Shown here: positions 1 through 44,774 of the stretch, in pieces
How the letters are laid out: every line of letters starts with the position of its first letter
Numbering within the stretch: position 1 is the stretch's first letter
Virus record (IMG/VR): IMGVR_UViG_3300045988_107221
Location: 1 to 44,774 of that record
Length of the DNA: 44,774 bases
DNA from: a virus
Strand: one strand, 5' to 3'
Notes under the pieces: model-generated
Databases searched by the model: none
What the model saw: only the letters and a program-made list of their open reading frames with translations
Told to the model about the DNA's origin: nothing
Position numbers and translations under genes: made by a program

Positions 1-89
1 ATTTTTTTTCTATCTCACCTTTTGGCACTACTTCCCTTTTACATTTATTTGTTCCGCAAAATCCATATACTTTTTCGCTCATCCGGTTG
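1..89. repeat. 89-bp terminal direct repeat, identical to 44686..44774 (circular-assembly overlap or terminal redundancy)
   Basis: Read directly: attttttttctatctcacc...cgctcatccggttg occurs at both ends of the window. Positions 1..82 (minus) duplicate the first 27 codons of the CDS at 44390..44767, and its RBS (AAAGGAGG) lies at about 90..97. Confidence 0.95.
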
Positions 90-2958: not shown

Positions 2959-2974
2959 TACAACTAAAATTGCA

Positions 2975-3006
2975 CAAAAAATAAGCCCCTCATCTGAGGA
3001 GCTTAT
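2975..3006 (-). terminator. rho-independent terminator downstream of 3021..3416
   Basis: Minus strand reads ATAAGCTCCTC-AGAT-GAGGGGCTTAT, an 11-bp stem with one G-U pair, followed by TTTTTTGTGC. Confidence 0.8.
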
Positions 3007-14848: not shown

Positions 14849-15418
14849 TTAATCCTCCTTTTCTATTACTCTTGATGCCCACATGTCTGCAAAATGTAGA
14901 ATCATATAAAGTGGTGTTTCTTTTCCTTGAATCTCATATTTCAACGGACCATAAAGGCCATTGTGATATAAAATCGCATGTTGTTCTTCTTCTGTGAGAT
15001 CAATAAACATGGTAGCAATGACCACACTTCTAATCTCATGTGGAATATTCAATAAATCTGAATTAGTAGTAAATGGTTTTACCTTTGACGGCTTACCATC
15101 TTTCAATATGTTTGGTACATATAATGATTTTCCGAATTGTCCACATTTCCCAAGGTCATGAAGTAATGAACAAATGACTACAGAATCCTGAATCTCATTA
15201 TATTTTGCTCCACCTAACCAAGCTACACCAAGCTTTTCAGCAAGATTTAGAACATTTATGCTATGCTCTGCAAGTCCTCCCTCTTTTGCAAGATGATATG
15301 ACCCGCTACACGGCGCTGTCAGAAATCCAATATTATTCATATAGTCGAGTAATTCAATCACGCCTTCTCTTTTTGTTTTCATAAGATAATCTCGGATAAT
15401 GTCTGCAACATTTTCCAT
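14849..15418 (-). CDS. HD-domain phosphohydrolase
   Basis: Start moved to the ATG at 15418 (RBS AAGGAG), 189 aa. Contains H...HDLGK and a later HNG/HFAD His-Asp pattern. Confidence 0.7.
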   Translation of the reverse strand: MENVADIIRDYLMKTKREGVIELLDYMNNIGFLTAPCSGSYHLAKEGGLAEHSINVLNLAEKLGVAWLGGAKYNEIQDSVVICSLLHDLGKCGQFGKSLYVPNILKDGKPSKVKPFTTNSDLLNIPHEIRSVVIATMFIDLTEEEQHAILYHNGLYGPLKYEIQGKETPLYMILHFADMWASRVIEKED

Positions 15419-15419
15419 A

Positions 15420-15767
15420 TCAAAAACTCCTTTCATTAATCGTTGCGACCAGCGCACGCGCTTGAATGATTCGTTCAGCATTTAACGCCCGAATCATATC
15501 TTTAAACATCTGAAATTGATCGGGATAGAGAATGACCGCATATCCATTCGCCATGCTGTTTATACGGGCTACATTGTATTTTTGCAACTCTGACGGTTTA
15601 CCATTTTGCGCTTTTACTTCAATGGCCACAAAATAACCGTTGATGCACGCCAAAATGTCTGGCACACCGTTCTTTGTCATTCGGTTCGCAAAAAATTTAA
15701 CCTGCCAACCGAAATTATCTTCGATATGTTTTTTTATCTTGTTTTCAAAGTTCTTTTCCTGTGCCAC
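15420..15767 (-). CDS. VRR-NUC domain nuclease
   Basis: 115 aa. GVPDILACINGYFVAIEVKAQNGKPSELQ gives the D...E-x-K nuclease core typical of VRR-NUC. Confidence 0.75.
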   Translation of the reverse strand: MAQEKNFENKIKKHIEDNFGWQVKFFANRMTKNGVPDILACINGYFVAIEVKAQNGKPSELQKYNVARINSMANGYAVILYPDQFQMFKDMIRALNAERIIQARALVATINERSF

Positions 15768-15771
15768 TCTC

Positions 15772-15939
15772 TCACCTCATTTCTGTAAGTAGTACAAACG
15801 CATTATACTTCCAAAAATTCAAATCACCATTTGGACCATTATGCACTATAGTGTCATACCAACTAGCAGCTATCCACATGATGAATACCGCACATCCTAA
15901 AAGAATTGCTTCTTTTATTATTGCTTTAATTATTTTCAT
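15772..15939 (-). CDS. small membrane protein (55 aa, below the ORF-track cutoff)
   Basis: Translated by hand: MKIIKAIIKEAILLGCAVFIMWIAASWYDTIVHNGPNGDLNFWKYNAFVLLTEMR. RBS GGAGG. It has its own promoter (P1) and is in line with the operon. Confidence 0.6.
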   Translation of the reverse strand: MKIIKAIIKEAILLGCAVFIMWIAASWYDTIVHNGPNGDLNFWKYNAFVLLTEMR

Positions 15940-15988
15940 CGTTTTATTTACCTCCGTAATGTGTTTGATTATCTTTAGCTTATGTTTA

Positions 15989-16017
15989 TATTATACCACT
16001 ATAGTTGTATAATGTAC
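15989..16017 (-). promoter_or_regulatory. promoter P1 of the TGTACA-N17-TATAAT family with embedded imperfect palindrome
   Basis: Minus strand: TGTACA (16017..16012), a 17-nt spacer TTATACAACTATAGTGG, then TATAAT (15994..15989). This also reads as an extended -10, TGGTATAAT. Confidence 0.65.
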
Positions 16018-16053
16018 ATAGGCATAACTACCAAAAACTTACATCGGTATTTG

Positions 16054-17361
16054 TTAGTTATTACTTTCCTCAAATAATTTATCCGTATAATCTCGTCGCA
16101 TTGCTAAGGTTCTATAAATCTTCTCCTCTATCGAACCTTTACATGTGAGATAGTAATAGAAACACGTTTTTTCCTGACCTATTCTATGAATACGTTTCTT
16201 TGATTGCTCGAATAACTCAGAAGATAATGGCGGAGTAAAATAAACAATTTTATTTGCCTTTTGTAAGTTAAGGCCCATTGCTCCGGCTTGGTATTGAATA
16301 AATGTGATAGAATCCGGGGCGTTTTCGTATGGTAACAAGTCTTTTTGTTTCCCATTTACGACGGCCACCGGCCGGTGATTCTCCCACGCGATTCGAGATA
16401 ATTTTTCCAGTTCGTCATTGAAATTGTAAAAAACTATCAATCTGTCATTTGTGGATTCTACTAAATCCCGGAACGCCTCCAGCTTTGCCGGGTTATACTG
16501 CCCGCATAACTGCCTTTCATAAAGCATTTTCGTGAGCGTGGTATCTCCAACAAGCTCTATATATTCACTGTAATCATCACCAACCAAAGTATTTACAATG
16601 CAATCTTTTCTGAAAATTCTGTAATCTTTTGTCGTCTGGACCCCAATAGTCTGGTGAATTTGCTCTGGTAAATCAAAAACTTCATCAGTCTTTAAGAAGT
16701 GACATCCATGCTGCCGCATTTTTCTTTTAAGACGTTCCTCATTCTTATAACCATCAATTATCATCAGCGGAAAACCTTCATTGTCTTCATAATGATAATC
16801 GACATACTGATTATAGAAAGTTTTTTTCTTGATATTCCATCCAAGCAAATGTAATTGCGACCATAATCGTTCATATTTTCCACCTGTCGGGGTACCTGAT
16901 AACAAAATCACGTTTTTTGGTTGCAATTTCTTCAATATGAACTTTGATCGCTTGCTATTCTCATTTTGGATTAATGAACTTTCATCCAGCATCAAAGTAA
17001 AATCCTTGAGCTTCGCCAGCTCTGGTCGCCTGAAAGCAAGTTCATAATTGATGATACCTATTTTGTGATCAAAACCATCTATATAAGTTATAAATTTATC
17101 AAACTGCTTTTTATCAGTTAAATCAAATATTAAATTTCTCATTGGAAACTTTTGACTTACATAATTATTCTTAAAATGTTCTATCCAGTCCCGAATCTTA
17201 GATTTCTGACAGATTACTAAATTCACTTTTGCGCCAAGCTGCATCATCTTTTCAGAACCGCCAAACGTTTTCCCCAACCCCATATCCCAATAGAGGGCAC
17301 ATTTATTCAAACCTTTTAGCTCTGCCAATGCTTTAGATTGATGCAGGTATAGTTTAATCAT
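16054..17361 (-). CDS. SNF2/Rad54-family helicase
   Basis: 435 aa. Helicase motifs: I LGKT, II LMLDESS, III LLSGTP, V-VI QAGAMGLNLQ and QSKKRIHRIGQ. Confidence 0.85.
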   Translation of the reverse strand: MIKLYLHQSKALAELKGLNKCALYWDMGLGKTFGGSEKMMQLGAKVNLVICQKSKIRDWIEHFKNNYVSQKFPMRNLIFDLTDKKQFDKFITYIDGFDHKIGIINYELAFRRPELAKLKDFTLMLDESSLIQNENSKRSKFILKKLQPKNVILLSGTPTGGKYERLWSQLHLLGWNIKKKTFYNQYVDYHYEDNEGFPLMIIDGYKNEERLKRKMRQHGCHFLKTDEVFDLPEQIHQTIGVQTTKDYRIFRKDCIVNTLVGDDYSEYIELVGDTTLTKMLYERQLCGQYNPAKLEAFRDLVESTNDRLIVFYNFNDELEKLSRIAWENHRPVAVVNGKQKDLLPYENAPDSITFIQYQAGAMGLNLQKANKIVYFTPPLSSELFEQSKKRIHRIGQEKTCFYYYLTCKGSIEEKIYRTLAMRRDYTDKLFEESNN

Positions 17362-17830
17362 CTTTCACCTCGGTGAGCTCAAGCGTATACGGTGACCAAC
17401 CCAAGTACCTTTCACGGTCTACATCACAACTAAAAAAGTCTTTCACATCTTCAAAATCTTTAAAGAATCCGTCACGATCAAACATATCTGGCACCATCTC
17501 GTTTATACCCGGCGCGTAAATTTGACCGTTTACAACCTCATATGTTTTTCCAGCGATAAATTTTTCATCACCTGTCAGGAAACAGATTTTTCCTGAATAA
17601 TATTTTTCGCATTTTTCTTCGCTTACTTTTTCTAAATAACGTTCATCAAACATGAAGTCTACTTCTTCCATATAATAACCGATTCCACAGTCACGAATTC
17701 CAATTCCGTCAATCGTCACAATCTTGCCGATCAACCTATCCATACAATATGCCCAGCTGCCAAAATAATCGTCAGCAGTGTTTCCATCTAAAATTTTCAC
17801 CTTATCTCCAATATTGAATTTAGTTTCCAT
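17354..17830 (-). CDS. hypothetical protein
   Basis: 158-aa ORF, RBS GGAAAGGAG, overlapping the helicase start. Confidence 0.6.
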   Translation of the reverse strand: METKFNIGDKVKILDGNTADDYFGSWAYCMDRLIGKIVTIDGIGIRDCGIGYYMEEVDFMFDERYLEKVSEEKCEKYYSGKICFLTGDEKFIAGKTYEVVNGQIYAPGINEMVPDMFDRDGFFKDFEDVKDFFSCDVDRERYLGWSPYTLELTEVKDD

Positions 17831-17832
17831 GT

Positions 17833-18003
17833 TTACTCCTTTCCTAAATACTCATATACCTTTGCTTCAGATATATGATATGTCCAAACAGTACTCATTT
17901 TGATTGCGTATCCAAACGGTAAAATTCCTCGTTGCAATCCGATCCGAACAAACTGAGGGGATTTACCAAGTAATTTTGCACATTCGATAACAGACAATTT
18001 CAA
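17833..18003 (-). CDS. excisionase/AlpA-like (HTH_17-type) small DNA-binding protein (56 aa, below cutoff)
   Basis: Translated by hand from a TTG start: MKLSVIECAKLLGKSPQFVRIGLQRGILPFGYAIKMSTVWTYHISEAKVYEYLGKE. This pattern is recalled from Xis/AlpA-type HTH proteins. Start codon uncertain. Confidence 0.55.
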   Translation of the reverse strand: MKLSVIECAKLLGKSPQFVRIGLQRGILPFGYAIKMSTVWTYHISEAKVYEYLGKE

Positions 18004-18210
18004 TCATTCCTTTACCATCGCATTTCTAAGTTCTTCACCAGTTATTCCGAGCTTTAAAGTTAAAACTGAAATATCTTTCTCAGTGAGCTTTGTATTCCCA
18101 TTAAGCTTACCGCTTGCCGATTGTTTTGAAATTCCAAGAATCTCAGCCAGATAATTAACGAAATCATCTCGCCCGGCATCGATCATTTTCTTTTTTATCA
18201 GATTTCGCAT
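18004..18210 (-). CDS. Cro-like / small HTH regulator
   Basis: 68 aa. HTH FVNYLAEILGISKQSASGKLNG. Early position in the lytic-direction operon. Confidence 0.6.
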   Translation of the reverse strand: MRNLIKKKMIDAGRDDFVNYLAEILGISKQSASGKLNGNTKLTEKDISVLTLKLGITGEELRNAMVKE

Positions 18211-18238
18211 TTTCTCATCTCCTTTCTTAAATATTGAA

Positions 18239-18296
18239 TTGCCGCAATGGGAATCGAACCCATGACATCATTGCTCTACCACTGAGCTATGCGACA
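18239..18296 (-). ncRNA. tRNA-like element lacking the anticodon arm
   Basis: The minus strand folds as: acceptor 5' strand TGTCGCA, then TA, the D arm GCTC-AGTGGTA-GAGC, a 9-nt linker AATGATGTC, the T arm ATGGG-TTCGATT-CCCAT, acceptor 3' strand TGCGGCA, and discriminator A. The acceptor stem has 7 bp (one G-U). G18/G19, T54-T55-C56 and A58 are conserved. No anticodon stem-loop is possible. Confidence 0.7.
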
Positions 18297-18358
18297 ACCG
18301 TTTTACAGCGGGCGATACCGCATGACCCTCTCACTAAATAAGAGAAAATTAACCTATA

Positions 18359-18604
18359 TTATTCCTCGCCGTCACCTTCTTTAATGAAGTCAATGACTTC
18401 CTGAACAGTAAGAGGGTCCGTTGCATTATTTTCAAGATAATCTTTGAAAGAAATGTCCGGGGAAATTATCCCGCTTTTAACGCCCGCTAAGTATTCTTTC
18501 ATAAGGGGCTGCTGTACATCTTCTGGTCTTGCTGTTGTGCCATTTTTTAAGATGATAGTTTTTCCAAGTTCAATCTGTTTTTCTAACTGTTTTACAATAT
18601 TCAT
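18359..18604 (-). CDS. hypothetical early protein
   Basis: Start moved to the ATG at 18604 (RBS GGAGAAAGG), 81 aa. First gene transcribed divergently from the repressor. Confidence 0.55.
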   Translation of the reverse strand: MNIVKQLEKQIELGKTIILKNGTTARPEDVQQPLMKEYLAGVKSGIISPDISFKDYLENNATDPLTVQEVIDFIKEGDGEE

Positions 18605-18896
18605 ATTATTGCCTTTCTCCACGTTTCGGCGTTGGTCACCGTGTTTTTGTTTACAATATTATTCTACTATAATTTCCAGCATTTGTATATTGACATTTTA
18701 CACAAAAATTTTATTTTATATTAGTTATTTTTACTAATTTCATAAAATCCTTACTTTTTACGCTTTTATTATATTAAGATAATTTCCAATTGACAACACA
18801 AAATGCGTAATTTCTTTACGAGAACATTTGTTCGATTGACTTTGTATATTGCGGATATTATCCTATAATTGTACATATGCACGGGGAGGCGTTAGA

Positions 18897-19244
18897 ATGG
18901 AGGCAGGAGAAGTTATCAAAAAATTGCGTAATGAAAAGAAATTTACGCAATCAGAATTGGGAATTATGCTAGGAGTGAATACATCGTCAATTCAAAAATA
19001 TGAAAGCGGAGCTACCAAAAATCTGAAATTAGAAACAATCAGGGAGTTATGTCATATATTTGATGTACCTCCTCTAGTCTTTGTTTTTCCAGAAATACTA
19101 GATGAAGGTTTCGATGCATATCATGAAAGAATGTTCAAGGACCATATGAAGGCATCACTAAATGTAAATGAAGAAGGTATAAAGAAGATATTTGACTATA
19201 TAAGCGACATTCAATCTATGCCGAAGTATCAAAAGTCAAGATGA
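18897..19244 (+). CDS. XRE-family repressor (CI-like, no S24 peptidase domain)
   Basis: ATG at 18897 with RBS GGGGAGG, 115 aa. HTH FTQSELGIMLGVNTSSIQKYESG. Divergent from the early operon and upstream of int. Confidence 0.75.
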   Translation: MEAGEVIKKLRNEKKFTQSELGIMLGVNTSSIQKYESGATKNLKLETIRELCHIFDVPPLVFVFPEILDEGFDAYHERMFKDHMKASLNVNEEGIKKIFDYISDIQSMPKYQKSR

Positions 19245-19447
19245 ATTCAAGATAGTTCAAGATAAGGAAATTCATCTTGAATTGGCTTAGGGCTTACGGT
19301 TGACACATATTTGAACTGAAAAGTCAAGAAGTCAAGTTAATTTCTACTTTTTATATATAAGCTAAAATCATTAAAAATTTTTGATGTTTGTAGAAAATAA
19401 TATATAAGTAAATATATATCTTGAACTTGACTTCTTGACTTTTGACA
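19235..19447. repeat. array 2 of (A)GTCAAGAT/ATCTTGAC(T) boxes (about 9 copies)
   Basis: Boxes start at 19235, 19246, 19256, 19274, 19323, 19331, 19418, 19425 and 19433. 19297..19400 is the inverted counterpart of 3484..3597. The array ends in TTGACTTCTTGACTTTTGACA, 20 nt before the int start. Confidence 0.9.
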
Positions 19448-19466
19448 TCAAAGGGAGAGAACATAA

Positions 19467-20471
19467 TTGCGGAGAGCAAATGGAGAAGGTTCAATTTTTA
19501 AGCTAAGCGGTAAACGTCGTAAACCTTACGCCGTAAGAATTACAGTTGGTTATACGAATGAAGGAAAACAGCTATACAAATATGTTGGTTATTATTCCAC
19601 CAAAACAGAAGCCAAAAATGCAATGAGAGAATATCTTGTCAACCCATTCAATTTAGACCATAAGAGCACCAAGCTCAAAGATGTATACGATAGGTGGTCA
19701 GACCAGAGTCAATTGGCCCAAACGACTATGCAGAGTTATGGTTCCGCTTTCAACCAAGCAAAGCAGCTTCACAACATGAGCATGAGAGACATCAAGGCTG
19801 CACACTTGGAAGCTGCTATGGATCAAATGAAACCTCATATGCGCAGCGTGTTTAAAAATGCTATGGGGAAAGTATATACATATGCTATCAAGCACGAGGT
19901 TGTTGATAAGGACCTCATGAGTCTGATCTCAGTGAAAACTACAGTGGAGACAAAAGAGAAAACACCATTCACCTTGGCTGAGATCAACAAACTGAAAACA
20001 TTTAAGCATCCATTAAATGACACCGTTTTCATCCTTTTGTATACGGGATTGCGGATCAATGAATTGCTTGATATTAAATGTGAAAATGTTCACTTGGATG
20101 AACGGTATATGATTGGAGGTAAGAAAACGAAGGCGGGCCAGAATCGAATCATTCCAATTCATGATGCAATTTATCCTTTAATAAAATCAAGATGTGAACA
20201 AGAAAATAAGTATCTGATAACCAAAGATAACAAGAAGATCAATTATGCTACATACAGAATTAGCTATTGGAATAAAATGAACTCTGCACTCGGGTTTAAA
20301 CATACACCGCACGACACACGTCACACATTTACGACATTTGCAGATAGATGCGACGTGCATAAAGTAGCATTGAAGAGAATTTTAGGTCATACGTTGAGCG
20401 ATATGACTGATCATTATACCCATAAAGATCTCGATGAATTACTGGCTGAGATCAATAAAATTGTATATTAA
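19467..20471 (+). CDS. int: tyrosine recombinase / phage integrase
   Basis: 334 aa. TTG start after AAAGGGAGAG. Catalytic pattern TGLRINEL (Arg), HDTRHTF (His-x-x-Arg) and LGHTLSDMTDHYTH (His...Tyr). Confidence 0.9.
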   Translation: MRRANGEGSIFKLSGKRRKPYAVRITVGYTNEGKQLYKYVGYYSTKTEAKNAMREYLVNPFNLDHKSTKLKDVYDRWSDQSQLAQTTMQSYGSAFNQAKQLHNMSMRDIKAAHLEAAMDQMKPHMRSVFKNAMGKVYTYAIKHEVVDKDLMSLISVKTTVETKEKTPFTLAEINKLKTFKHPLNDTVFILLYTGLRINELLDIKCENVHLDERYMIGGKKTKAGQNRIIPIHDAIYPLIKSRCEQENKYLITKDNKKINYATYRISYWNKMNSALGFKHTPHDTRHTFTTFADRCDVHKVALKRILGHTLSDMTDHYTHKDLDELLAEINKIVY

Positions 20472-20497
20472 AAAAGAGCCTCACGGCTCTTTTTTAT
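20470..20497. terminator. bidirectional rho-independent terminator
   Basis: Stem AAGAGCC-TCAC-GGCTCTT flanked by an A-run and a T-run. It lies between the convergent int gene and the 52-aa ORF. Confidence 0.8.
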
Positions 20498-20500
20498 TTG

Positions 20501-20659
20501 TTAGTATTTAATGCATCTGCCTTTAACGAAATATGCGATCGTATCTCCAAGCATGTTTTCAACTTCAACAGGCTCTCCTGTCTGATCGTGAAACTCTTTA
20601 GCTTCTTTCATTGCTCTTTCTTTTGTCATTGTTCCGTTATTTACTATGATTCTTTTCAT
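20501..20659 (-). CDS. small hypothetical protein (52 aa, below cutoff)
   Basis: Translated by hand: MKRIIVNNGTMTKERAMKEAKEFHDQTGEPVEVENMLGDTIAYFVKGRCIKY. RBS GGAGG. It has its own promoter (P2) and terminator. Confidence 0.6.
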   Translation of the reverse strand: MKRIIVNNGTMTKERAMKEAKEFHDQTGEPVEVENMLGDTIAYFVKGRCIKY

Positions 20660-20709
20660 TTTAATTACCTCCGTTTATTTGTTTGATTTATTATTTATTT
20701 TGTAATTAT

Positions 20710-20738
20710 ATTATACAACTAAAGTTGTAGTTTGTACA
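20710..20738 (-). promoter_or_regulatory. promoter P2 (TGTACA-N17-TATAAT) with perfect TACAAC-N4-GTTGTA palindrome
   Basis: Minus strand: TGTACA (20738..20733), a 17-nt spacer AACTACAACTTTAGTTG, then TATAAT (20715..20710). The palindrome spans 20714..20729. Confidence 0.7.
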
Positions 20739-20831
20739 TAGGCAAAATAACCAAAGATTTGATGAGTTTCTTAGTTATTTTGTATATTAAATGTATATTA
20801 TAGATGCTTTTTCATTTGTTTTTATACATTC

Positions 20832-20866
20832 AGGAACGTTGTCGTATCAACGTTCCTTTTGATTTT
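20832..20866 (+). terminator. orphan plus-oriented hairpin plus T-tract
   Basis: Stem AGGAACGTTG-tcgtat-CAACGTTCCT followed by TTTTGATTTT. No plus-strand CDS lies upstream of it. Confidence 0.5.
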
Positions 20867-21000
20867 ATACATTTTTTAAATTTCCCCAACAAAATTTAAG
20901 AATGTGATAACGTCAACGTTTACGTATCAATTTGTATATTACACGCGTATTGCGGAATAGAAAATGAAAAATGCAAATTGTGATATAATTAAATCATATC

Positions 21001-21037
21001 GTTGTACTATGTACAACCAGCGTTGTACTATTATATT
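21001..21037 (+). promoter_or_regulatory. promoter P6 variant with triple half-site GTTGTAC-TAT-GTACAAC-CAGC-GTTGTAC
   Basis: TGTACA (21010..21015), a 16-nt spacer, then TATATT (21032..21037). An extended -10 (TGATATAAT, 20981..20989) lies just upstream, so two tandem promoters are possible. Confidence 0.5.
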
Positions 21038-21075
21038 AGATGCTGTATCGCATCTAATTTACAGGAGGGGAGAAC

Positions 21076-21210
21076 ATGGAAGATATGACACGGTTGGAAA
21101 TACTTACATTATTGTTGTCGCTCAAAGGTTTATTGGAAACCGACAATTCTGAGAAAGCTTTAGAAGTGATCAACAACGTTATTGCTGAAGCACAACGAAA
21201 AGAATTATGA
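21076..21210 (+). CDS. small acidic hypothetical protein (44 aa, below cutoff)
   Basis: Translated by hand: MEDMTRLEILTLLLSLKGLLETDNSEKALEVINNVIAEAQRKEL. Strong RBS AGGAGGGGAG. Confidence 0.55.
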   Translation: MEDMTRLEILTLLLSLKGLLETDNSEKALEVINNVIAEAQRKEL

Positions 21211-21338
21211 AAGAATGAAGGTCTAAGAATCTATATTGCGATCTTAGAATCAGAACTAACTCAAAGGGAGAACGGCAATCTCATGTATGACTTTGATGAG
21301 TTTGCCGCTGATGTGAGAAAGAAATATGGTATAAAATG

Positions 21339-21366
21339 AGGAACCCTTGCGGGTTCCTTTTATTAT
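21339..21366. terminator. bidirectional terminator
   Basis: Stem AGGAACCC-TTGC-GGGTTCCT followed by TTTTATT. It overlaps the stop of the convergent 289-aa gene. Confidence 0.7.
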
Positions 21367-22232
21367 TTTGTTTTGCGTGATGGTGTAGTAAATGCTCTCT
21401 CGACACTCCATCCCATTTTATAAATACGCCCATATAATGTATTTGGAGAAATTCCGAGTTCTTTACCCCAAGCGCAGATGTTTTGAGCTTTTCCATCAAA
21501 CTCAATTAATGCGCCACGCTTCGGAGTCGGTTTGTGTCCTTCCTGATCTTTAATCTCAACATTGATTTTATAACCGTCAGCCTTGAAAAGACCAAGTAGG
21601 TATCCTTTAAGAATAGATTTTCTTACTCTCTTCATTGCACCTGGTGCCTCACCTCCTGCACAATCGGGTTCATATTTAGAGTTCATTGCTTCATCTAAGA
21701 TTTCATTGAAAGCATCATTTGTAATCCAATTGTCGAATTCCTCTTGAGTCATTTCTCCATCTATCATTGCGTTATCATTTCCACCGATAATCCAATTATA
21801 AGCGTTTTCAATATTTTTCTTTGCAATCAGTTCGTCTTTATTTTGTATAGCCTTAATTTTTGTAGGTCTTTCAGGTTTAACCTCAATAGGTTCTTCAGTC
21901 TCTACCTCAGTAGGTTTTTCCTCGATAGGTTCTTCTTCGATAGGTTTTTCCTCACCAATCAACTGAATTTTGCCAGCCTTATATTTTTTGAGGAATTTTA
22001 CAAAATCATTTTTTGGACCATACTCTGCCCAATGTTTCTGATAATGTTCAAAGAGTTTATTTTCTTTTTCGATTTCTTCTTCTCTTTCGGCGGTTTCTTC
22101 TTCACTCATATTCTGGATTTTTTCAATCTCAACAATGAGTTCTGCTTTTTTTAAGTTCCACCAATTTTTAACTTTAAGCTCTTTTGCAATTTCCTTAAGT
22201 TCTTTGCTTGTCATCTCTCTTAATTCTTTCAT
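21363..22232 (-). CDS. hypothetical protein: Rho_N/SAP-like N-terminus, acidic Pro/Glu repeat linker, C-terminal HTH-like domain
   Basis: 289 aa. N-terminal MTSKELKEIAKELKVKNWWNLKKAELI. Linker repeat EEKPIEEEPIEEKPTEVETEEPIEVKPERP. The C-terminal ICAWGKELGISPNTLYGRIYKMGWSVERAFTTP is a DNA-binding motif common at the ends of phage nuclease or regulator proteins. Confidence 0.65.
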   Translation of the reverse strand: MKELREMTSKELKEIAKELKVKNWWNLKKAELIVEIEKIQNMSEEETAEREEEIEKENKLFEHYQKHWAEYGPKNDFVKFLKKYKAGKIQLIGEEKPIEEEPIEEKPTEVETEEPIEVKPERPTKIKAIQNKDELIAKKNIENAYNWIIGGNDNAMIDGEMTQEEFDNWITNDAFNEILDEAMNSKYEPDCAGGEAPGAMKRVRKSILKGYLLGLFKADGYKINVEIKDQEGHKPTPKRGALIEFDGKAQNICAWGKELGISPNTLYGRIYKMGWSVERAFTTPSRKTK

Positions 22233-22254
22233 GTTATATTCTCCTTTTCCTGCG

Positions 22255-22372
22255 AGCTCCAGATTCGCGTTTCTAGATGTTTTTATATATTAGTCATATA
22301 AATTATCATGAAACATATTAAAATGAGAATTTGATATGAATCTGAATGTCTCACGCATATTCATATTGTTTT
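22255..22372. repeat. copy B of the ~115-bp inverted repeat (partner 2842..2958)
   Basis: See 2842..2958. Here the repeat forms most of the ~170-nt leader between promoter P3 and the 289-aa gene. Confidence 0.75.
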
Positions 22373-22403
22373 TAGTTTCATAAGCTCTTTAACTTATATT
22401 CTT

Positions 22404-22432
22404 ATTATACAACAAAAGTTGTATCTTGTACA
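22404..22432 (-). promoter_or_regulatory. promoter P3 (TGTACA-N17-TATAAT) with perfect TACAAC-N4-GTTGTA palindrome
   Basis: Minus strand: TGTACA (22432..22427), spacer AGATACAACTTTTGTTG, then TATAAT (22409..22404). The palindrome spans 22408..22423. Confidence 0.7.
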
Positions 22433-22554
22433 CTGAAAGTTGCATAAAAGGAAGAAGTTTAAACCTTCTGTCAATTGTATCTTTGAAGGTGTAACCAAGG
22501 CGAATTGCAAGAACATTCGTAAGAGATAAGCTTTATTATATATACAACTATTAG

Positions 22555-22583
22555 TGTACATAGTACAACTATCGTCATATAAT
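22555..22583 (+). promoter_or_regulatory. promoter P4 (TGTACA-N17-TATAAT), part of a ~105-bp promoter-leader cassette at 22527..22631
   Basis: TGTACA (22555..22560), spacer TAGTACAACTATCGTCA, then TATAAT (22578..22583). A second TACAAC half-site at 22543..22548 pairs across the -35. Confidence 0.7.
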
Positions 22584-22628
22584 AAGAATATAAGCTAATC
22601 GCTTAATAACTTCTTAGGAGAGATTAAA

Positions 22629-22802
22629 ATGATTGAAAATGAATTATTGCTTGACTTACTGTTTGAACTCAGAGAACGTGAGGCTGATTATATTATTGAG
22701 AATGGTTGGTTTATGACATACCTCGGTAACGAGCGCATTCGCTTCAGAATTGAAGACGAAGAACAGACATGGTGGTTGTTAGATGAAATATGGAATTGGT
22801 AA
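22629..22802 (+). CDS. small acidic protein (57 aa, below cutoff)
   Basis: Translated by hand: MIENELLLDLLFELREREADYIIENGWFMTYLGNERIRFRIEDEEQTWWLLDEIWNW. RBS AGGAGAG. By my count 15 D/E against 5 K/R. Confidence 0.65.
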   Translation: MIENELLLDLLFELREREADYIIENGWFMTYLGNERIRFRIEDEEQTWWLLDEIWNW

Positions 22803-22803
22803 A

Positions 22804-22829
22804 CTGAGGGCAACCTCAGTTTTCTTTTT
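22804..22829 (+). terminator. rho-independent terminator
   Basis: Stem CTGAGG-GCAA-CCTCAG followed by TTTTCTTTTT. Confidence 0.75.
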
Positions 22830-22878
22830 ATATCTAATTGTCAGAAGATATAAGCTTTCTATATCATACAACTTTTAT

Positions 22879-22907
22879 TGTACATAATACAACTTACGTT
22901 GTATAAT
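22879..22907 (+). promoter_or_regulatory. promoter P5 (TGTACA-N17-TATAAT), part of the second copy of the promoter-leader cassette at 22851..22957
   Basis: TGTACA (22879..22884), spacer TAATACAACTTACGTTG, then TATAAT (22902..22907), with a perfect TACAAC-TTAC-GTTGTA palindrome. The upstream ATACAAC-TTTTA-TTGTA spans the -35. Confidence 0.7.
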
Positions 22908-22954
22908 TATATTATAAGCTAATCAAGCTTAATAACTTTTTGGGAGAGATTAAA

Positions 22955-23143
22955 ATGATAGACAAATTCGAAGAAATGCTTCACAACATGTATGGAAAAG
23001 GTTATGAAGATATGATTGATGTATTTATGTATGAATTACATCATCATTATAATGATGATCTTGATCTAGATAAATTATTCATCGAGTTTGGTAAGTATCT
23101 CGAAGATTGCGAGATCATGCGTGCAGCATTCAATCAAAAATAA
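22955..23143 (+). CDS. small acidic protein (62 aa)
   Basis: ATG at 22955 follows GGGAGAGATTAAA, the same leader as at 22629. The ORF-track TTG at 22940 is rejected. By my count 15 D/E against 6 K/R. Confidence 0.65.
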   Translation: MIDKFEEMLHNMYGKGYEDMIDVFMYELHHHYNDDLDLDKLFIEFGKYLEDCEIMRAAFNQK

Positions 23144-23195
23144 AAATGAGGGGCTTCGGCCCCTTACCAAATAAATACCAAAAGGGGATTTTCAA

Positions 23196-23474
23196 ATGAA
23201 ATTTAAGCTTGGCCAAGTAGTAATCACAAAAGGTGTAAATGTTAAAATTAGTGAAAGTATAGAATTTTCCAAGTTCTTCCTTGAATCAATTGCAAAATAT
23301 CGTAATTGCGATTGGGGAAACCTTGGTAACGAGGATTGGGAAATGAATGACCAAGCCGTCAAAAATGGTGACGATAGAATTTTCGCTCGGTATAATAATC
23401 AAGAGGGCGACATCTATATAATTACGGAATGGGACAGATCAATTACTACGATATTGTTTCCATCTGAATATTAA
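23196..23474 (+). CDS. small protein of the CDWG...TTILFPSEY type (family common on plasmids/ICEs, function unknown)
   Basis: 92 aa, RBS AAAGGGGA. The motif NCDWGNLGNEDWEMND...IYIITEWDRSITTILFPSEY is recalled from small ORFs that accompany anti-restriction genes on mobile elements. Not verified. Confidence 0.6.
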   Translation: MKFKLGQVVITKGVNVKISESIEFSKFFLESIAKYRNCDWGNLGNEDWEMNDQAVKNGDDRIFARYNNQEGDIYIITEWDRSITTILFPSEY

Positions 23475-23486
23475 AAGGAGGAAATT

Positions 23487-23723
23487 ATGGCAAAAAAATT
23501 AAAAGAAATGAGGCAAGCCGCCGGCTTGTCTCAATCCCAATTGGCTGAAAAAGCCAACATGAATGTCAGAACACTCCAGCACTATGAGCAGGGAAGTAAG
23601 ATTTTTGATCATGCTAGAATTGATACAATCTTGCGTGTGTGTTTGGCATTAAATTGTAAATTTGAGGATATTATTGAGAATCAAGAATATATTGATTTGA
23701 TTAAACGATATAAAGATTCTTGA
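23487..23723 (+). CDS. XRE-family HTH protein (Aca-like position)
   Basis: 78 aa. HTH LSQSQLAEKANMNVRTLQHYEQG. RBS AAGGAGG. Last gene of the plus-strand moron operon. Confidence 0.8.
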   Translation: MAKKLKEMRQAAGLSQSQLAEKANMNVRTLQHYEQGSKIFDHARIDTILRVCLALNCKFEDIIENQEYIDLIKRYKDS

Positions 23724-23749
23724 AATTTGCATGGGTTACACTGACAAAA

Positions 23750-23780
23750 ATAAAAAGGACCATTAAGGTCCTTTTTATTT
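23750..23780. terminator. bidirectional terminator between the convergent moron operon and tail operon
   Basis: Stem AAAGGACC-attaa-GGTCCTTT flanked by an A-run and a T-run. Confidence 0.8.
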
Positions 23781-23795
23781 TAAATATATTCAATT

Positions 23796-24698
23796 TTAAG
23801 CTTGACCAATCTTTGATTTTAAGGCTGTGATTTCGAGAATATTTTCAGCTTCAAGCTCTGCGTTCGTGTGGATTTCAACGGGTGATTTTGATGTGTCAAG
23901 AATATAATCATAGCCCTCTGTTAGTACTACACCATTGACATTGATGAATAAAATATCGCTTGAGGCGTACGTATAACCATCCATATCGAGTGGGAATATT
24001 CCATTTTTACTACCAATATTGATTGCTTTATGATATTTTTCGATGTATGTATTGACCTGTAGTTGATCCGTAAGAGCGGAAAACCATGTGTCAAACGCAC
24101 TTTCTTGCTGCTGCTGCCATGTCTGCATTTGCTGGTAAAATTCCTCATACGCTGTCTGCCATTGTAAAAACAATTTACTTGTGTCCACCTGCTGCACGAT
24201 GCCAGTCACCCAACCGCATACATCGTTATCCGGTCGGGTATCTTCGATATTAGCCTGACTGATCGACGTTACACCACGTCCAATGTAAATATAAGCAAGG
24301 CACATTTCTTTAATGGTTTCCGAATTTGTTATGATCGGTTTTACAGGTGCCGTTGCATTTTCACCGTCTTTTGTTGTGATTATGATAGTACGTGCTGATA
24401 AATCTAATCGAATTATAATAGCCGTATAGCGATTTAATGTGACGTGTGCAGCATTAATTATGAGTGGATAAGCAGCGGTGTTTTTAATCCACTTCGAATC
24501 GATAATAGCCCTACCCGCTCCTACTTGTACCTGCATACCTGTGCCGGCTAAAACCTGCATCGCATCGTCCACACTCTCATATACTCCGTCACTCACGAGA
24601 CCCTCAAAGTATGTACTCATTTGGTCCGCATTATATGTACGATCATAAGTTCCGTCTGATTGTTTTATTGCATTAAAAAATCCATATGTAATAGCCAT
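23796..24698 (-). CDS. distal tail / baseplate structural protein (last gene of the late operon)
   Basis: 300 aa, immediately after the Tal-like gene. No enzymatic motif recognised. Confidence 0.55.
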   Translation of the reverse strand: MAITYGFFNAIKQSDGTYDRTYNADQMSTYFEGLVSDGVYESVDDAMQVLAGTGMQVQVGAGRAIIDSKWIKNTAAYPLIINAAHVTLNRYTAIIIRLDLSARTIIITTKDGENATAPVKPIITNSETIKEMCLAYIYIGRGVTSISQANIEDTRPDNDVCGWVTGIVQQVDTSKLFLQWQTAYEEFYQQMQTWQQQQESAFDTWFSALTDQLQVNTYIEKYHKAINIGSKNGIFPLDMDGYTYASSDILFINVNGVVLTEGYDYILDTSKSPVEIHTNAELEAENILEITALKSKIGQA

Positions 24699-44389: not shown

Positions 44390-44767
44390 TTATGATACCG
44401 TTATAGTCGGGATACCGTCCCTTTTTAGTAAAATCAATCTACATTTAACACTCAAATAATCCGTGTGCGTTGTTTTGAAATATACAGATAATTTATTCGT
44501 ATTGCGTATAAATACGTTTAGTATATCTGTATTTGCCATTGTGTAATAATTTTCGTTATAGGTTGCATCGTCACTACGAACAAACATTTTAGAAATAAGA
44601 GAAGTGTTCACAAAAGTCCACCCGTCGGGTAACTGAATTGACTTAGTTGTGCCTGATTGAATAGACGGTATTTCAACAATCAATAATTTTTTTTCTATCT
44701 CACCTTTTGGCACTACTTCCCTTTTACATTTATTTGTTCCGCAAAATCCATATACTTTTTCGCTCAT
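44390..44767 (-). CDS. hypothetical protein (spans the circular junction region)
   Basis: 125 aa. Its RBS lies beyond the window end, seen in the duplicated copy at about 90..97. Confidence 0.55.
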   Translation of the reverse strand: MSEKVYGFCGTNKCKREVVPKGEIEKKLLIVEIPSIQSGTTKSIQLPDGWTFVNTSLISKMFVRSDDATYNENYYTMANTDILNVFIRNTNKLSVYFKTTHTDYLSVKCRLILLKRDGIPTITVS

Positions 44768-44774
44768 CCGGTTG
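44686..44774. repeat. second copy of the 89-bp terminal repeat
   Basis: Identical to 1..89. Confidence 0.95.

What the first reader, a model, noticed from the sequence alone, without database searches (positions are those of the whole stretch)
15989..22907. Six copies of one promoter-operator module (TGTACA-N17-TATAAT with embedded TACAAC-N4-GTTGTA) define a phage regulon
**Seen in sequence:** the same architecture recurs six times.
- P1 at 15989..16017 (-).
- P2 at 20710..20738 (-).
- P3 at 22404..22432 (-).
- P4 at 22555..22583 (+).
- P5 at 22879..22907 (+).
- P6, a variant, at 21001..21037 (+).

All but P6 have an exact 17-nt spacer; P6 has 16.

The palindrome overlaps the -10 hexamer: GTTGTATAAT shares its last four bases with TATAAT. 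It is perfect in P2, P3 and P5. P6 instead carries perfect GTACAAC/GTTGTAC palindromes. The start of the transcript, ATAAGCTAA, is also conserved in P1, P3, P4 and P5.

The genes these promoters drive are all small or unknown: 55-aa membrane, 52-aa, 289-aa, 57-aa, 62-aa and 44-aa. A degenerate seventh copy (tatacaactaaaattgca) sits at about 2961..2980.

**Inference:** a single dimeric DNA-binding protein switches this set on or off by occluding RNA polymerase. Candidates are the 78-aa XRE at 23487..23723 or the 115-aa repressor. The set looks like prophage-expressed morons or an immediate-early anti-defence regulon.
Basis: partly seen in the sequence, partly recalled or inferred. Interest (0 to 1): 0.65.

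Follow-up and report, generated by a model that had tools for sequence, protein, structure and literature searches.

The report
Repeated repressor-controlled promoter cassette in phage
A gut phage drives six small accessory-gene cassettes from copies of one strong promoter that carries a palindromic binding site, and comparison with related phages points to a 78-residue phage repressor, encoded behind one of these promoters, as the protein that most likely shuts them all off; this is a large example of a known kind of control.

Summary
P6 is a weaker copy. Each copy embeds TACAAC-N4-GTTGTA, far above chance. The "seventh copy" near 2961-2980 is not distinguishable from chance.

The module is not a host promoter type. 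Its 22-base core has two matches in 185,579 species genomes, both on phage-like contigs. It has more than 100 copies in about 20 related uncultivated phages from gut and rumen metagenomes.

The binder is most likely the 78-aa XRE protein (23487-23723), not the 115-aa repressor.
- The XRE gene is the last gene of a module-driven operon in every relative examined.
- Relatives lacking it lack the module.
- Across distant homologues, the three inner operator bases change together with the first residues of the recognition helix.

Most likely mechanism (inferred, not shown): dimers on the -10 operator, and on a -35 operator in half the window's copies, exclude RNA polymerase. That would give a burst of expression on entry followed by self-limiting shut-off.

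The closest known systems are Aca autorepressors of anti-CRISPR operons and restriction-modification controller proteins. I rate it a new member of a known kind, notable for 6-10 copies per genome and its cassette-like spread.

The parts
15990..16018 (-). P1 module: -35 TGTACA (16013-16018), operator TACAACTATAGTGGTA (15994-16009, 1 mismatch), -10 TATAAT (15990-15995). It sits inside the early operon between the SNF2 helicase and VRR-NUC genes.
   Evidence: Weight-matrix score 42.4 bits. The same slot in relative L021 holds a module with a different small gene.
15772..15939 (-). 55-aa hydrophobic protein, the first gene after P1.
   Evidence: A ribosome-binding site and ATG lie about 45 nt after the -10 hexamer. 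No family match.
20710..20738 (-). P2 module (class A, single operator): perfect operator at 20714-20729. The conserved upstream element (AATCTTTGGTTATTTTGCCTA) extends to about 20763.
   Evidence: Weight-matrix score 44.7 bits.
20501..20659 (-). 52-aa protein driven by P2. The cassette is inserted between the integrase terminator and a block that adjoins the integrase gene in relatives.
   Evidence: family C15, also in L016. One search shows the slot holds a different 41-aa gene in L020 and is empty in L048.
21001..21038 (+). P6, a weaker variant module: perfect operator TACAACCAGCGTTGTA at 21012-21027 (7+4+7 palindrome at 21011-21028), an overlapping GTTGTAC-TAT-GTACAAC at 21001-21017, and a weakened -10 (TACTAT at 21026-31 or TATATT at 21033-38).
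   Evidence: (D3). Weight-matrix score 16.4 bits. The cassette 20981-21366 is conserved at other positions in L023, L007, L048 and L052.
21076..21210 (+). 44-aa acidic protein driven by P6.
   Evidence: Its family (C19) is the last gene of a module-driven Phd/ParE operon in L021 and L024.
22404..22444 (-). P3 module (class B): -10 at 22404-09, perfect proximal operator at 22408-23, -35 at 22427-32, degenerate distal operator at 22429-44.
   Evidence: Weight-matrix score 41.1 bits.
21363..22232 (-). 289-aa protein with an N-terminal Rho_N/SAP-like domain, driven by P3.
   Evidence: Pfam Rho_N, E 2.4e-8. Family C3 is the first gene behind a module in 16 of 17 loci, with variable C-terminal parts.
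22543..22583 (+). P4 module (class B): distal operator at 22543-58, -35 at 22555-60, proximal operator at 22564-79 (2 mismatches each), -10 at 22578-83.
   Evidence: Weight-matrix score 32.9 bits.
22629..22822 (+). 57-aa acidic protein (pI 4.1, 22629-22802) with its own intrinsic terminator (22801-22822).
   Evidence: Family C1 is the first gene behind a module in 16 of 19 cases.
22867..22907 (+). P5 module (class B): distal operator at 22867-82 (1 mismatch), -35 at 22879-84, perfect proximal operator at 22888-903, -10 at 22902-07. This is the promoter of the operon that encodes the repressor.
   Evidence: Weight-matrix score 43.0 bits.
22915..22931 (+). Hairpin at the 5' end of the P5 transcript, TAAGCT-AATCA-AGCTTA. 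Equivalent hairpins follow P3 and P4.
   Evidence: Stems of different sequence occur at the same place in other modules.
22955..23143 (+). 62-aa acidic protein (pI 4.6), first gene of the P5 operon.
   Evidence: (family C4).
23196..23474 (+). 92-aa conserved protein of unknown function, always immediately upstream of the XRE gene in the close group of phages.
   Evidence: The model is confident (pLDDT 96) but has no significant solved-structure neighbour.
23487..23723 (+). 78-aa XRE-family helix-turn-helix protein, the proposed repressor of all modules. It is the last gene of the P5 operon.
   Evidence: Pfam HTH_3, E 8.8e-11. Co-occurrence. Covariation of recognition helix and operator. Model with recognition helix at residues 27-35.

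Best explanation
The six sites are copies of one portable expression cassette. Each has a strong host sigma-A type promoter (TGTACA-N17-TATAAT) and a 16-bp palindromic operator, TACAAC-N4-GTTGTA, whose last two bases are the first two of the -10 hexamer. P3, P4 and P5 have a second operator 21 bp upstream that overlaps the -35 hexamer.

The operator is most likely bound by a dimer of the phage's own 78-aa XRE protein, the last gene of the P5 operon (62-aa, 92-aa, XRE). The protein would therefore repress its own synthesis and, in parallel, five other single-gene or short cassettes by keeping RNA polymerase off the -10 and -35 hexamers.

The expected behaviour follows. When the genome enters a cell without repressor, all cassettes fire at once.

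**Shown here:** the anatomy, its non-chance recurrence, its restriction to this phage group, its strict linkage to the XRE gene, and the covariation of operator and recognition helix.

**Inferred:** binding, repression rather than activation, the timing, and the idea that the cargo serves establishment or counter-defence.
For: **1. Recurrence.**
- 5 exact and 1 variant module in the window.
- 106 module instances in about 20 related loci, each followed 25-60 nt later by a ribosome-binding site and a start codon.

**2. Binding-site signature.** Half-sites are conserved and the central four bases are not.

**3. Not a host promoter type.** The 22-base core matches only 2 stretches in 185,579 species genomes. 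One lies on a 24.5-kb contig whose length equals that of an IMG/VR viral contig; the other lies on a 47.8-kb contig.

**4. Linkage to the XRE gene.**
- The XRE protein (73-95% identical) is found at every motif-selected contig, whereas the 115-aa repressor is found in only 2.
- Loci fetched by XRE homology alone: 14 of the 15 with at least 73% identity have 3-8 operators. The fifteenth (L027) has the same module with a variant half-site. The 9 loci with 29-43% identity have none.
- In 16 of 16 loci the XRE gene is the last gene of a module-driven operon.
- Relatives chosen by the tail gene that lack the XRE protein (L124, L130) have no modules.

**5. Specificity covariation, in the same register relative to the -10 hexamer.**

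| Start of recognition helix | Operator half-site | Loci |
|---|---|---|
| NVRT | TACAAC | many |
| SLRT | TACCAC | L027/L044, and independently L093 |
| KFRA | TAC[CT]GC | L064, 3 palindromic sites |
| SVRV | TACATC | L073-81, L088 |
| STRT | TACGCT | L087/L090 |
| SVRT | TACCG[TA] | L084, L086 |

These residues lie at the N-terminus of the predicted recognition helix. In short contigs such as L087 the XRE protein is the only DNA-binding protein in the operator-bearing operon.

**6. Fold.** The nearest solved folds are small dimeric repressors that bind palindromes in their own promoters: C.BclI, C.AhdI, SinR, 434 Cro and ImmR.
Against: - No binding, footprint, transcription start or expression data exist. 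Everything is comparative.
- Covariation rests on few independent lineages per class. One case is discordant: L060 has NVRT with TACCAC/TACTAC, and NVRT phages also tolerate TACCAC half-sites.
- All close relatives share synteny, so co-occurrence partly reflects common descent.
- Other conserved proteins could in principle bind and were not excluded experimentally. These are the 56-aa helix-turn-helix protein of the early operon and the Rho_N-domain proteins.
- A hairpin lies between the 62-aa and 92-aa genes (23149-23164). Read-through from P5 to the XRE gene is therefore assumed, not shown.
- The function of the cargo genes is unknown.
Confidence: 0.7

Rival explanations
1. The operator is bound by the phage's lysogeny repressor, the 115-aa XRE protein at 18897-19244 next to the integrase gene. 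The modules would then be ordinary prophage-repressed early promoters.
For: It is a helix-turn-helix protein in the classical repressor position, divergent from the early genes. In relative L029 a module sits at the head of the early operon.
Against: - Homologues are absent from several phages that use the same operator. L004 and L029 are covered across the integrase-to-early-gene region; L026, L044, L057, L058 and L059 have no homologue in the stretch fetched.
- L064 has a 59% homologue but a different operator, one that tracks its XRE protein instead.
- The window's own switch region (18623-18896) has different repeats (TGGAAATTAT..., D19) and no module.
Confidence: 0.07
2. The 92-aa protein and the XRE protein form a toxin-antitoxin pair of the HigBA type, with the toxin gene first and an XRE antitoxin second. 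The operator would be the antitoxin's autoregulatory site, copied onto other promoters, and the toxin:antitoxin ratio would set the output of the regulon.
For: - The gene order and sizes fit HigB-HigA.
- The pair is strictly conserved in the close group.
- The best solved-structure neighbours of the 92-aa model are YoeB, RelE and HigB2.
- Nearly invariant Arg61 and Arg81 and an invariant C-terminal Tyr92 recall catalytic residues of that superfamily; this last point rests on my own knowledge.
- Other module-driven cassettes in relatives are ParE-type toxin pairs.
Against: - The fold matches are not significant: E 0.19-0.8 and TM 0.40-0.48.
- There is no sequence-family match.
- More distant XRE homologues with the same promoter-operator design are preceded by unrelated acidic proteins or by nothing. 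The regulator therefore does not depend on the 92-aa partner.
Confidence: 0.12
3. A host transcription factor, or only RNA polymerase with a particular sigma factor, recognises the conserved sequence. The palindrome would be a host regulatory box, or simply part of an extended promoter, that the phage borrows.
For: The -35 and -10 hexamers are ordinary sigma-A type. The host genome is unknown, so a host factor cannot be excluded directly. A conserved upstream element (AAACTTTGTG.ATTTT) suggests further promoter recognition.
Against: - The full module is essentially absent from 185,579 species genomes.
- The left half-site lies in the spacer, where sigma-A makes no base contacts (established knowledge).
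- The half-site changes between phages in step with a phage-encoded protein, which a host factor would not explain.
- The sequence does not fit the Firmicutes LexA box CGAAC-N4-GTTCG (my own knowledge).
Confidence: 0.05
4. The repeats matter mainly as recombination substrates. The conserved promoter/terminator cassettes would be mobile regulatory units that shuffle accessory genes between phages, and any common regulation would be secondary.
For: - Homology between related phages breaks at module and terminator edges.
- The same slot carries different cargo in different phages.
- The P6 cassette occurs at different positions.
- Cargo differs widely behind the same module.
- This parallels the promoter-stem-loop cassettes of T4-type phages (PMC2839356, PMC4122927).
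Against: - This does not explain the dyad symmetry, the conserved half-sites with a free centre, or the covariation with the XRE protein.
- It is compatible with the best explanation rather than exclusive of it.
Confidence: 0.06

Closest known systems
Aca (anti-CRISPR-associated) autorepressors and acr-aca operons, including the recent prediction that Aca proteins co-regulate neighbouring anti-defence operons (PMC13551039; also PMC6765145, PMC9410906)
   Same: - A small helix-turn-helix protein is encoded last in an operon of small, variable, often acidic genes.
- Inverted repeats in the strong operon promoter overlap the -35 and -10 hexamers.
- The logic is negative autoregulation, giving a burst and then shut-off.
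- The same operator appears in front of other nearby operons.
   Different: - No cargo gene is a known anti-CRISPR.
- There is no detectable sequence match to any solved Aca structure.
- The published cases report up to three motifs per locus. Here there are 6 in the window and up to 8 or more in relatives, one of them inside the replication operon.
- The promoter, operator and 5'UTR behave as one repeated cassette.
Controller (C) proteins of restriction-modification systems (C.BclI, C.AhdI)
   Same: - These are the closest solved folds: TM 0.66-0.71 and rmsd 1.1-1.3 A over about 60 residues.
- Proteins of similar size bind tandem palindromic operators in their own promoter.
- They time gene expression after entry into a new cell (the last two points are established knowledge).
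   Different: - No restriction or methylase genes are linked.
- C proteins activate at the first operator before repressing at the second. Nothing here indicates activation.
- Sequence identity is only about 25%.
Phage and plasmid regulons with one repressor and many scattered operators: SPbeta MrpR with its repeated element (PMC10516654); also P1 C1, mycobacteriophage L5 gp71 and IncP KorA/KorB (my own knowledge)
   Same: One element-encoded repressor has many copies of its site spread over the genome, mostly at promoters.
   Different: Those repressors maintain lysogeny or control core functions. Here the sites mark accessory cassettes, and the window has a separate classical repressor and switch. 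The operator and protein are unrelated.
Promoter-stem-loop cassettes (PeSL) of T4-type phages (PMC2839356, PMC4122927)
   Same: Repeated promoter-plus-hairpin units flank small unknown genes in variable regions and coincide with gene gain, loss and replacement between close relatives.
   Different: PeSLs are in virulent Gram-negative phages and carry no repressor operator. Here the cassette also carries a palindromic operator tied to a phage repressor.
Phage 434 repressor/Cro and their ACAA-N6-TTGT operators (my own knowledge)
   Same: - The operator here contains ACAA-N6-TTGT within TACAAC-N4-GTTGTA.
- 434 Cro is among the fold neighbours, at 29% identity.
- Adjacent operators overlap the promoter hexamers.
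   Different: The base-contacting residues differ (NVRT against QQS), and the sites are not at the lysis-lysogeny switch.

Membership tests
Aca repressor / acr-aca operon | Helix-turn-helix (or RHH) regulator encoded downstream of small genes in the same operon | tested here: met
   The XRE gene is the last gene of a module-driven operon in the window and in 16 of 16 related loci. The same holds in distant homologues.
Aca repressor / acr-aca operon | Inverted-repeat binding sites within the operon's own promoter | tested here: met
   P5 has a perfect proximal operator overlapping the -10 hexamer and a distal operator overlapping the -35 hexamer.
Aca repressor / acr-aca operon | At least one co-operonic gene is an anti-CRISPR | not testable with these tools
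   No anti-CRISPR library is on hand. The cargo proteins have no Pfam, PHROG, NCBIfam or PADLOC match.
Aca repressor / acr-aca operon | Sequence membership in a named Aca family (Aca1-14) | tested here: inconclusive
   A sequence search against all solved structures gave only generic XRE matches, and fold neighbours are C proteins, SinR and Cro. Aca families without solved structures could not be compared.
Aca repressor / acr-aca operon | Demonstrated repression of the promoter by the protein | not testable with these tools
   This needs gel-shift and reporter assays.
Restriction-modification controller (C) protein | Small XRE-fold dimer with tandem palindromic operators in its own promoter | tested here: met
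   Fold match to C.BclI and C.AhdI. Tandem operators lie 21 bp apart at P3-P5.
Restriction-modification controller (C) protein | Genetic linkage to restriction endonuclease and methyltransferase genes | tested here: not met
   No such genes were found among the annotated representatives of module-driven operons in the window or relatives.
HigBA-type toxin-antitoxin module | Upstream partner has a RelE-superfamily toxin fold | tested here: inconclusive
   The 92-aa model is confident (pLDDT 96), but its matches to YoeB, RelE and HigB2 have E 0.19-0.8 and TM 0.40-0.48. There is no profile match.
Classical CI/Cro switch operators | Sites lie between the divergent repressor gene and the early lytic operon | tested here: not met
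   The window's switch region at 18623-18896 has other repeats and no module. The modules lie in the accessory region and at the SNF2/VRR-NUC junction.
Firmicutes LexA (SOS) box | Consensus CGAAC-N4-GTTCG | tested here: not met
   The operator consensus from 83 modules is TACAAC-N4-GTTGTA. The LexA consensus is from my own knowledge.
T4-type PeSL mobile regulatory cassette | Repeated promoter-plus-hairpin units at the borders of gene replacements between close relatives | tested here: inconclusive
   Homology blocks end at module and terminator edges, and slots carry alternative cargo. No statistical test of junction enrichment was made.

The most novel reading that the evidence does not exclude
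The module is a self-contained mobile expression cassette made of an upstream element, a promoter, a repressor operator and a 5' hairpin. It both recruits newly acquired accessory genes into one timed, self-limiting programme and serves as the homology that shuffles those genes among phages. In effect it would be a repressor-gated gene-cassette platform for counter-defence and establishment genes in temperate phages of gut Clostridia. The module itself would then be a searchable flag for new anti-defence genes.
Probability: 0.3. Interest if true: 0.65.

Novelty: new member of a known kind. Interest (0 to 1): 0.5.

Why it matters
The module is a sharp, easily searched signature: 22 fixed bases that are almost absent outside this phage group. 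It marks more than 100 small, mostly unannotated genes in uncultivated gut and rumen phages. In relatives these lie beside families typical of establishment genes of mobile elements, such as DUF932, SprT-like, amidoligase and ParE pairs.

If the Aca-like reading holds, "driven by this module" becomes a guilt-by-regulation criterion for finding counter-defence genes in Clostridia phages, where few are known.

The family also offers a natural series of matched repressor-operator pairs. At least six half-site variants track two to four residues of the recognition helix. This series could be used to study, or engineer, orthogonal small repressors for Gram-positive hosts.

Tried and rejected
- **Known phage relatives.** A megablast of 15000-24000 against 50,697 deposited phage genomes gave no match, so no annotated relative exists.
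- **Literature.** A full-text search for TACAAC/GTTGTA operators in phages returned nothing relevant.
- **Seventh copy (2959-2974).** Rejected. It scores -4.6 bits, within the shuffle range, has no -35 hexamer, and lies between two terminator-like hairpins upstream of the lysis genes.
- **The hit at 18870-18898.** Its only resemblance is TGTACA; it has no operator. Rejected as a module.
- **The 115-aa repressor as binder.** Rejected on phyletic grounds.
- **More TACCAC-type phages.** A pattern scan found only the same phage again, one short related contig without the XRE region, and one probable chance hit. The NV-to-SL covariation was therefore extended through metagenome loci instead.
- **The 92-aa protein.** Pfam, PHROG, NCBIfam, PADLOC, sequence and profile searches of solved structures, and two fold searches gave no function.
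- **Host identification.** Not achieved. Hints point to Clostridia: a MAG label, a Spo0A_C gene in a relative, and a homologue of the 92-aa protein in Ruminiclostridium josui.
- **Lysogeny repressor of relatives.** Whether the XRE protein is the lysogeny repressor in relatives that lack a CI-like gene was examined. Only L029 has a module at the early-operon promoter. L004 has the same promoter skeleton without the operator. This is left open.

Full report
**1. The observation**

The region was read directly. The pattern TGTACA-N17-TATAAT is exact at five sites: 15990-16018(-), 20710-20738(-), 22404-22432(-), 22555-22583(+) and 22879-22907(+). With one mismatch allowed there are 6 hits against 0.63 expected, and none of 100 shuffles reaches 6.

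The embedded palindrome TACAAC-N4-GTTGTA, with up to 2 mismatches, occurs 12 times against 2.16 expected. None of 100 shuffles reaches 12. It is perfect at 20714, 21012, 22408 and 22888.

P6 carries a perfect operator (21012-21027, extended palindrome 21011-21028) but weakened hexamers.

A weight matrix built only from modules of other phages scores the window copies at 44.7, 43.0, 42.4, 41.1, 32.9 and 16.4 bits. The best score in 20 shuffles is 9.0. The proposed seventh copy near 2961-2980 scores -4.6, lacks a -35 hexamer, and is not supported.

The conserved transcript start reads ATAAGTTAA, not ATAAGCTAA, in P3.

**2.

P3, P4 and P5 have a second operator 21 bp upstream of the first, about two helical turns. 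It overlaps the -35 hexamer (22429-44, 22543-58, 22867-82). TGTACA is therefore the right arm of the distal site plus two bases.

Across 83 non-redundant modules from related phages there are two classes.
- Class B (29 modules) has the distal operator and a conserved 5'UTR.
- Class A (54 modules, including P1 and P2) has one operator and a conserved upstream element, AAACTTTGTG.ATTTT..cta.

Half-sites are strongly conserved and the central four bases are not.

P4 and P5 share about 120 nt, including the 5'UTR. Each small gene ends in its own terminator. The units are therefore promoter-operator-leader-gene-terminator cassettes.

**3. Genome context**

The window has an 89-bp exact terminal direct repeat. 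It is therefore a complete, circularly assembled phage genome of about 44.7 kb and 38% G+C.

Structural and replication genes run on the minus strand. A classical divergent switch lies at 18623-19244: the 115-aa XRE repressor (+), its own repeats, and a TTGTCA-N17-TATAAT promoter pointing to the early genes. Next come the integrase gene and then the accessory region 20500-23723 that holds five of the six modules. P1 lies inside the early operon between the SNF2 helicase and VRR-NUC genes.

There is no close relative among deposited phage genomes.

**4. Distribution**

The 22-base core of the module is found on 11 IMG/VR contigs of 7-45 kb. It occurs in only two stretches among 185,579 species genomes. 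One is a 24.5-kb contig of a Clostridia MAG whose length equals that of an IMG/VR viral contig. The other is a 47.8-kb contig binned as Bacteroidaceae.

In about 20 related loci I counted 106 module instances. Each is followed 25-60 nt later by a ribosome-binding site and a start codon.

**5. Which protein binds**

*Linkage.*
- A translated search (tblastn) shows the 78-aa XRE protein (73-95% identity), and the 92-aa gene before it, at every motif-selected contig. The 115-aa repressor appears in only two. The integrase drops to 36-41% identity in several.
- Loci fetched by XRE homology alone give an independent sample. Of the 15 with at least 73% identity, 14 have 3-8 operators against 0-0.15 in shuffles. 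The 9 loci with 29-43% identity have none.
- In 16 of 16 loci a module drives [variable small gene] - 92-aa gene - XRE gene, with the XRE gene last.
- Relatives chosen by the neighbouring tail gene that lack the XRE protein have no modules. These are L124 (tail protein 84% identical) and L130.

*Covariation.*
- The one exception in the XRE-selected sample, L027, has the same module with the half-site TACCAC-N4-GTGGTA. Its XRE protein begins the recognition helix with S-L-R-T instead of N-V-R-T.
- A metagenome scan seeded with that protein gave a graded series of homologues. Each has a palindrome of the form TAC-NNN-N4-NNN-GTA in the same register on the -10 hexamer of the promoter of its own operon. 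Two further loci reach the same design by a different reading: in L075 the promoter that faces the XRE gene is TTGACA-N17-TACCAT, and in L064 the site directly upstream of the XRE gene is a 4-of-6 hybrid (TACTGC-AATT-GTTGTA).
- The inner three bases follow the helix start:

| Helix start | Half-site | Loci |
|---|---|---|
| NVRT | TACAAC | many |
| SLRT | TACCAC | L027/L044; again in the independent L093 lineage |
| KFRA | TAC[CT]GC | L064 |
| SVRV | TACATC | two lineages |
| STRT | TACGCT | L087/L090 |
| SVRT | TACCG[TA] | L084, L086 |

*Structure and conservation.*
- The predicted structure (pLDDT 92.7) places residues 26-29 at the N-terminus of helix 3, the recognition helix.
- The top 120 of 650 homologues all keep N-[VIA]-R-T.
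- In short contigs the XRE protein is the only DNA-binding protein of the operator-bearing operon.

*Limits.* There are few lineages per class, and one case is discordant (L060). NVRT phages also tolerate some TACCAC half-sites.

**6. Mechanism**

The operator fills the spacer and the first two bases of the -10 hexamer. The distal one covers the -35 hexamer. The spacer is the optimal 17 bp. This geometry fits repression by exclusion of RNA polymerase, not activation.

Because the repressor gene lies behind one of its own targets, the set should fire together in a repressor-free cell and then be turned down together. Copies with weaker operators (P4, and the single-operator P1) should stay more active at steady state. 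This is inference; nothing was measured.

**7. What the regulon carries**

The window's cargo is:
- a 55-aa membrane protein;
- a 52-aa protein;
- acidic proteins of 44, 57 and 62 aa (pI 4.1-4.6);
- a 289-aa Rho_N-domain protein;
- the conserved 92-aa protein.

None has an informative family match.

In relatives the same module drives DUF2786+DUF7168, DUF932, two kinds of ParE toxin pairs, Amidoligase_2 with a GGACT enzyme, SprT-like, Pyr_excise and Spo0A_C proteins. To my knowledge, several of these families are typical of establishment or leading-region genes of mobile elements.

The 92-aa protein gives a confident model, but its solved-structure matches are weak and non-significant. They are to RelE, YoeB and HigB2. 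It also matches uncharacterised viral proteins. A HigBA-like reading of the 92-aa/XRE pair stays open at low probability.

**8. Cassette behaviour**

DNA comparison with 14 relatives shows homology blocks ending at module or terminator edges.
- The P6 cassette (20981-21366) sits at different positions in four phages.
- The slot after the integrase gene holds the 52-aa gene in the window and L016, a different 41-aa gene behind the same module in L020, and nothing in L048.
- The slot between the SNF2 and VRR-NUC genes holds a module with a different small gene in L021.

This resembles the promoter-stem-loop cassettes of T4-type phages (PMC2839356, PMC4122927). No statistical test was made.

**9. 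Comparison with known systems**

- *Aca autorepressors.* The design matches acr-aca operons with their Aca autorepressors. A 2026 study predicts that Aca proteins co-regulate up to three neighbouring anti-defence operons, and shows this for Aca14 (PMC13551039). Membership cannot be claimed: no cargo is a known anti-CRISPR, and there is no sequence match to solved Aca structures.
- *Controller proteins.* The nearest folds are restriction-modification controller proteins, then DdrO, SinR, 434 Cro and ImmR. No restriction-modification genes are linked.
- *Many-operator regulons.* These are known for other mobile elements, for example SPbeta MrpR (PMC10516654).

**10. Verdict**

I classify this as a new member of a known kind: an Aca-like or controller-like autorepressor regulon. 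It is unusual for its copy number and its cassette-like spread. It is useful as a search handle for accessory genes in uncultivated Clostridia phages.

Interest is 0.5.

Noticed in passing
window 1-89 and 44686-44774: An exact 89-bp direct repeat at the two ends of the window. The window is therefore a complete, circularly assembled (or terminally redundant) phage genome of about 44.7 kb, not an integrated prophage.
   Followed up: partly
window 18236-18300 (- strand): A tRNA-like sequence with acceptor stem, D arm and T arm but no anticodon arm. ARAGORN calls no tRNA in the window. Relatives have intact tRNA genes (Arg, Gln, Asn) at the same place upstream of the 68-aa helix-turn-helix gene, and the window copy aligns to them with the anticodon arm deleted.
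   Followed up: partly
window 22915-22931 and equivalents after P3 and P4; many modules in L016-L030: About a third of module transcripts begin with a hairpin whose 5' arm is the conserved UAAG... start. The stem sequences differ between modules (UAAGCU/AGCUUA, UAAGGUU/AACCUUA, UAAGUUA/UAACUUA). This could be a 5' stabiliser or a second regulatory site, and it recalls the RNA motifs reported for some Aca proteins (PMC13551039).
   Followed up: partly
window about 20739-20763 and 16019-16045; class A modules in relatives, also L064, L084 and L086: A conserved element, AAACTTTG[TG]N.ATTTT..cta, lies directly upstream of the -35 hexamer. It is kept even in distant phages whose operator half-site has changed. 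It could be an UP-like element or the site of a second factor.
   Followed up: no
window 18657-18678 and 18767-18788: Direct repeats TATTAT.CTA..ATAATTTCCA lie in the switch region between the 115-aa repressor gene and the early genes. One lies in the spacer of a TTGTCA-N17-TATAAT promoter (18796-18768, - strand). These are probably the operators of the 115-aa repressor, and they differ from the module.
   Followed up: no
window 19310-19338 / 19424-19452: A 29-nt inverted repeat, 90% complementary and made of GTCAAGAAGTCAAG-type units, lies between the repressor and integrase genes (I6). It may be a regulatory or recombination-related site.
   Followed up: no
window 20778-20975: This block is 91-93% identical to sequence that directly follows the integrase gene in several relatives (L020, L048, L052, L007). 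It contains a strong hairpin at 20832-20857. It is a candidate attachment-site region, separated from the integrase gene in the window by the inserted P2/52-aa cassette.
   Followed up: no
window 21283-21339: A short reading frame ending ...DFDEFAADVRKKYGIK resembles the C-terminus of the Phd-like antitoxin of a module-driven Phd/ParE operon in L021 and L024. It is probably a remnant of a decayed toxin-antitoxin cassette.
   Followed up: no
L029 about 4125 (- strand) = L006 13536 (+): In this relative there is no CI-like gene beside the integrase gene, and a module with a one-mismatch operator heads the early operon (two tRNA genes, then homologues of the 68-aa and 56-aa proteins). There the small XRE protein may also control lytic genes. 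L004 has the same promoter skeleton at that place but no operator.
   Followed up: partly
window 15985-16013 (+ strand): Because the extended operator is palindromic (ATTATAC...GTATAAT), P1 also reads as TTTATA-N17-TATAAT on the opposite strand (28.3 bits), pointing antisense into the SNF2 gene. Similar mirror hits occur at other modules. Whether any of them fires is unknown.
   Followed up: no
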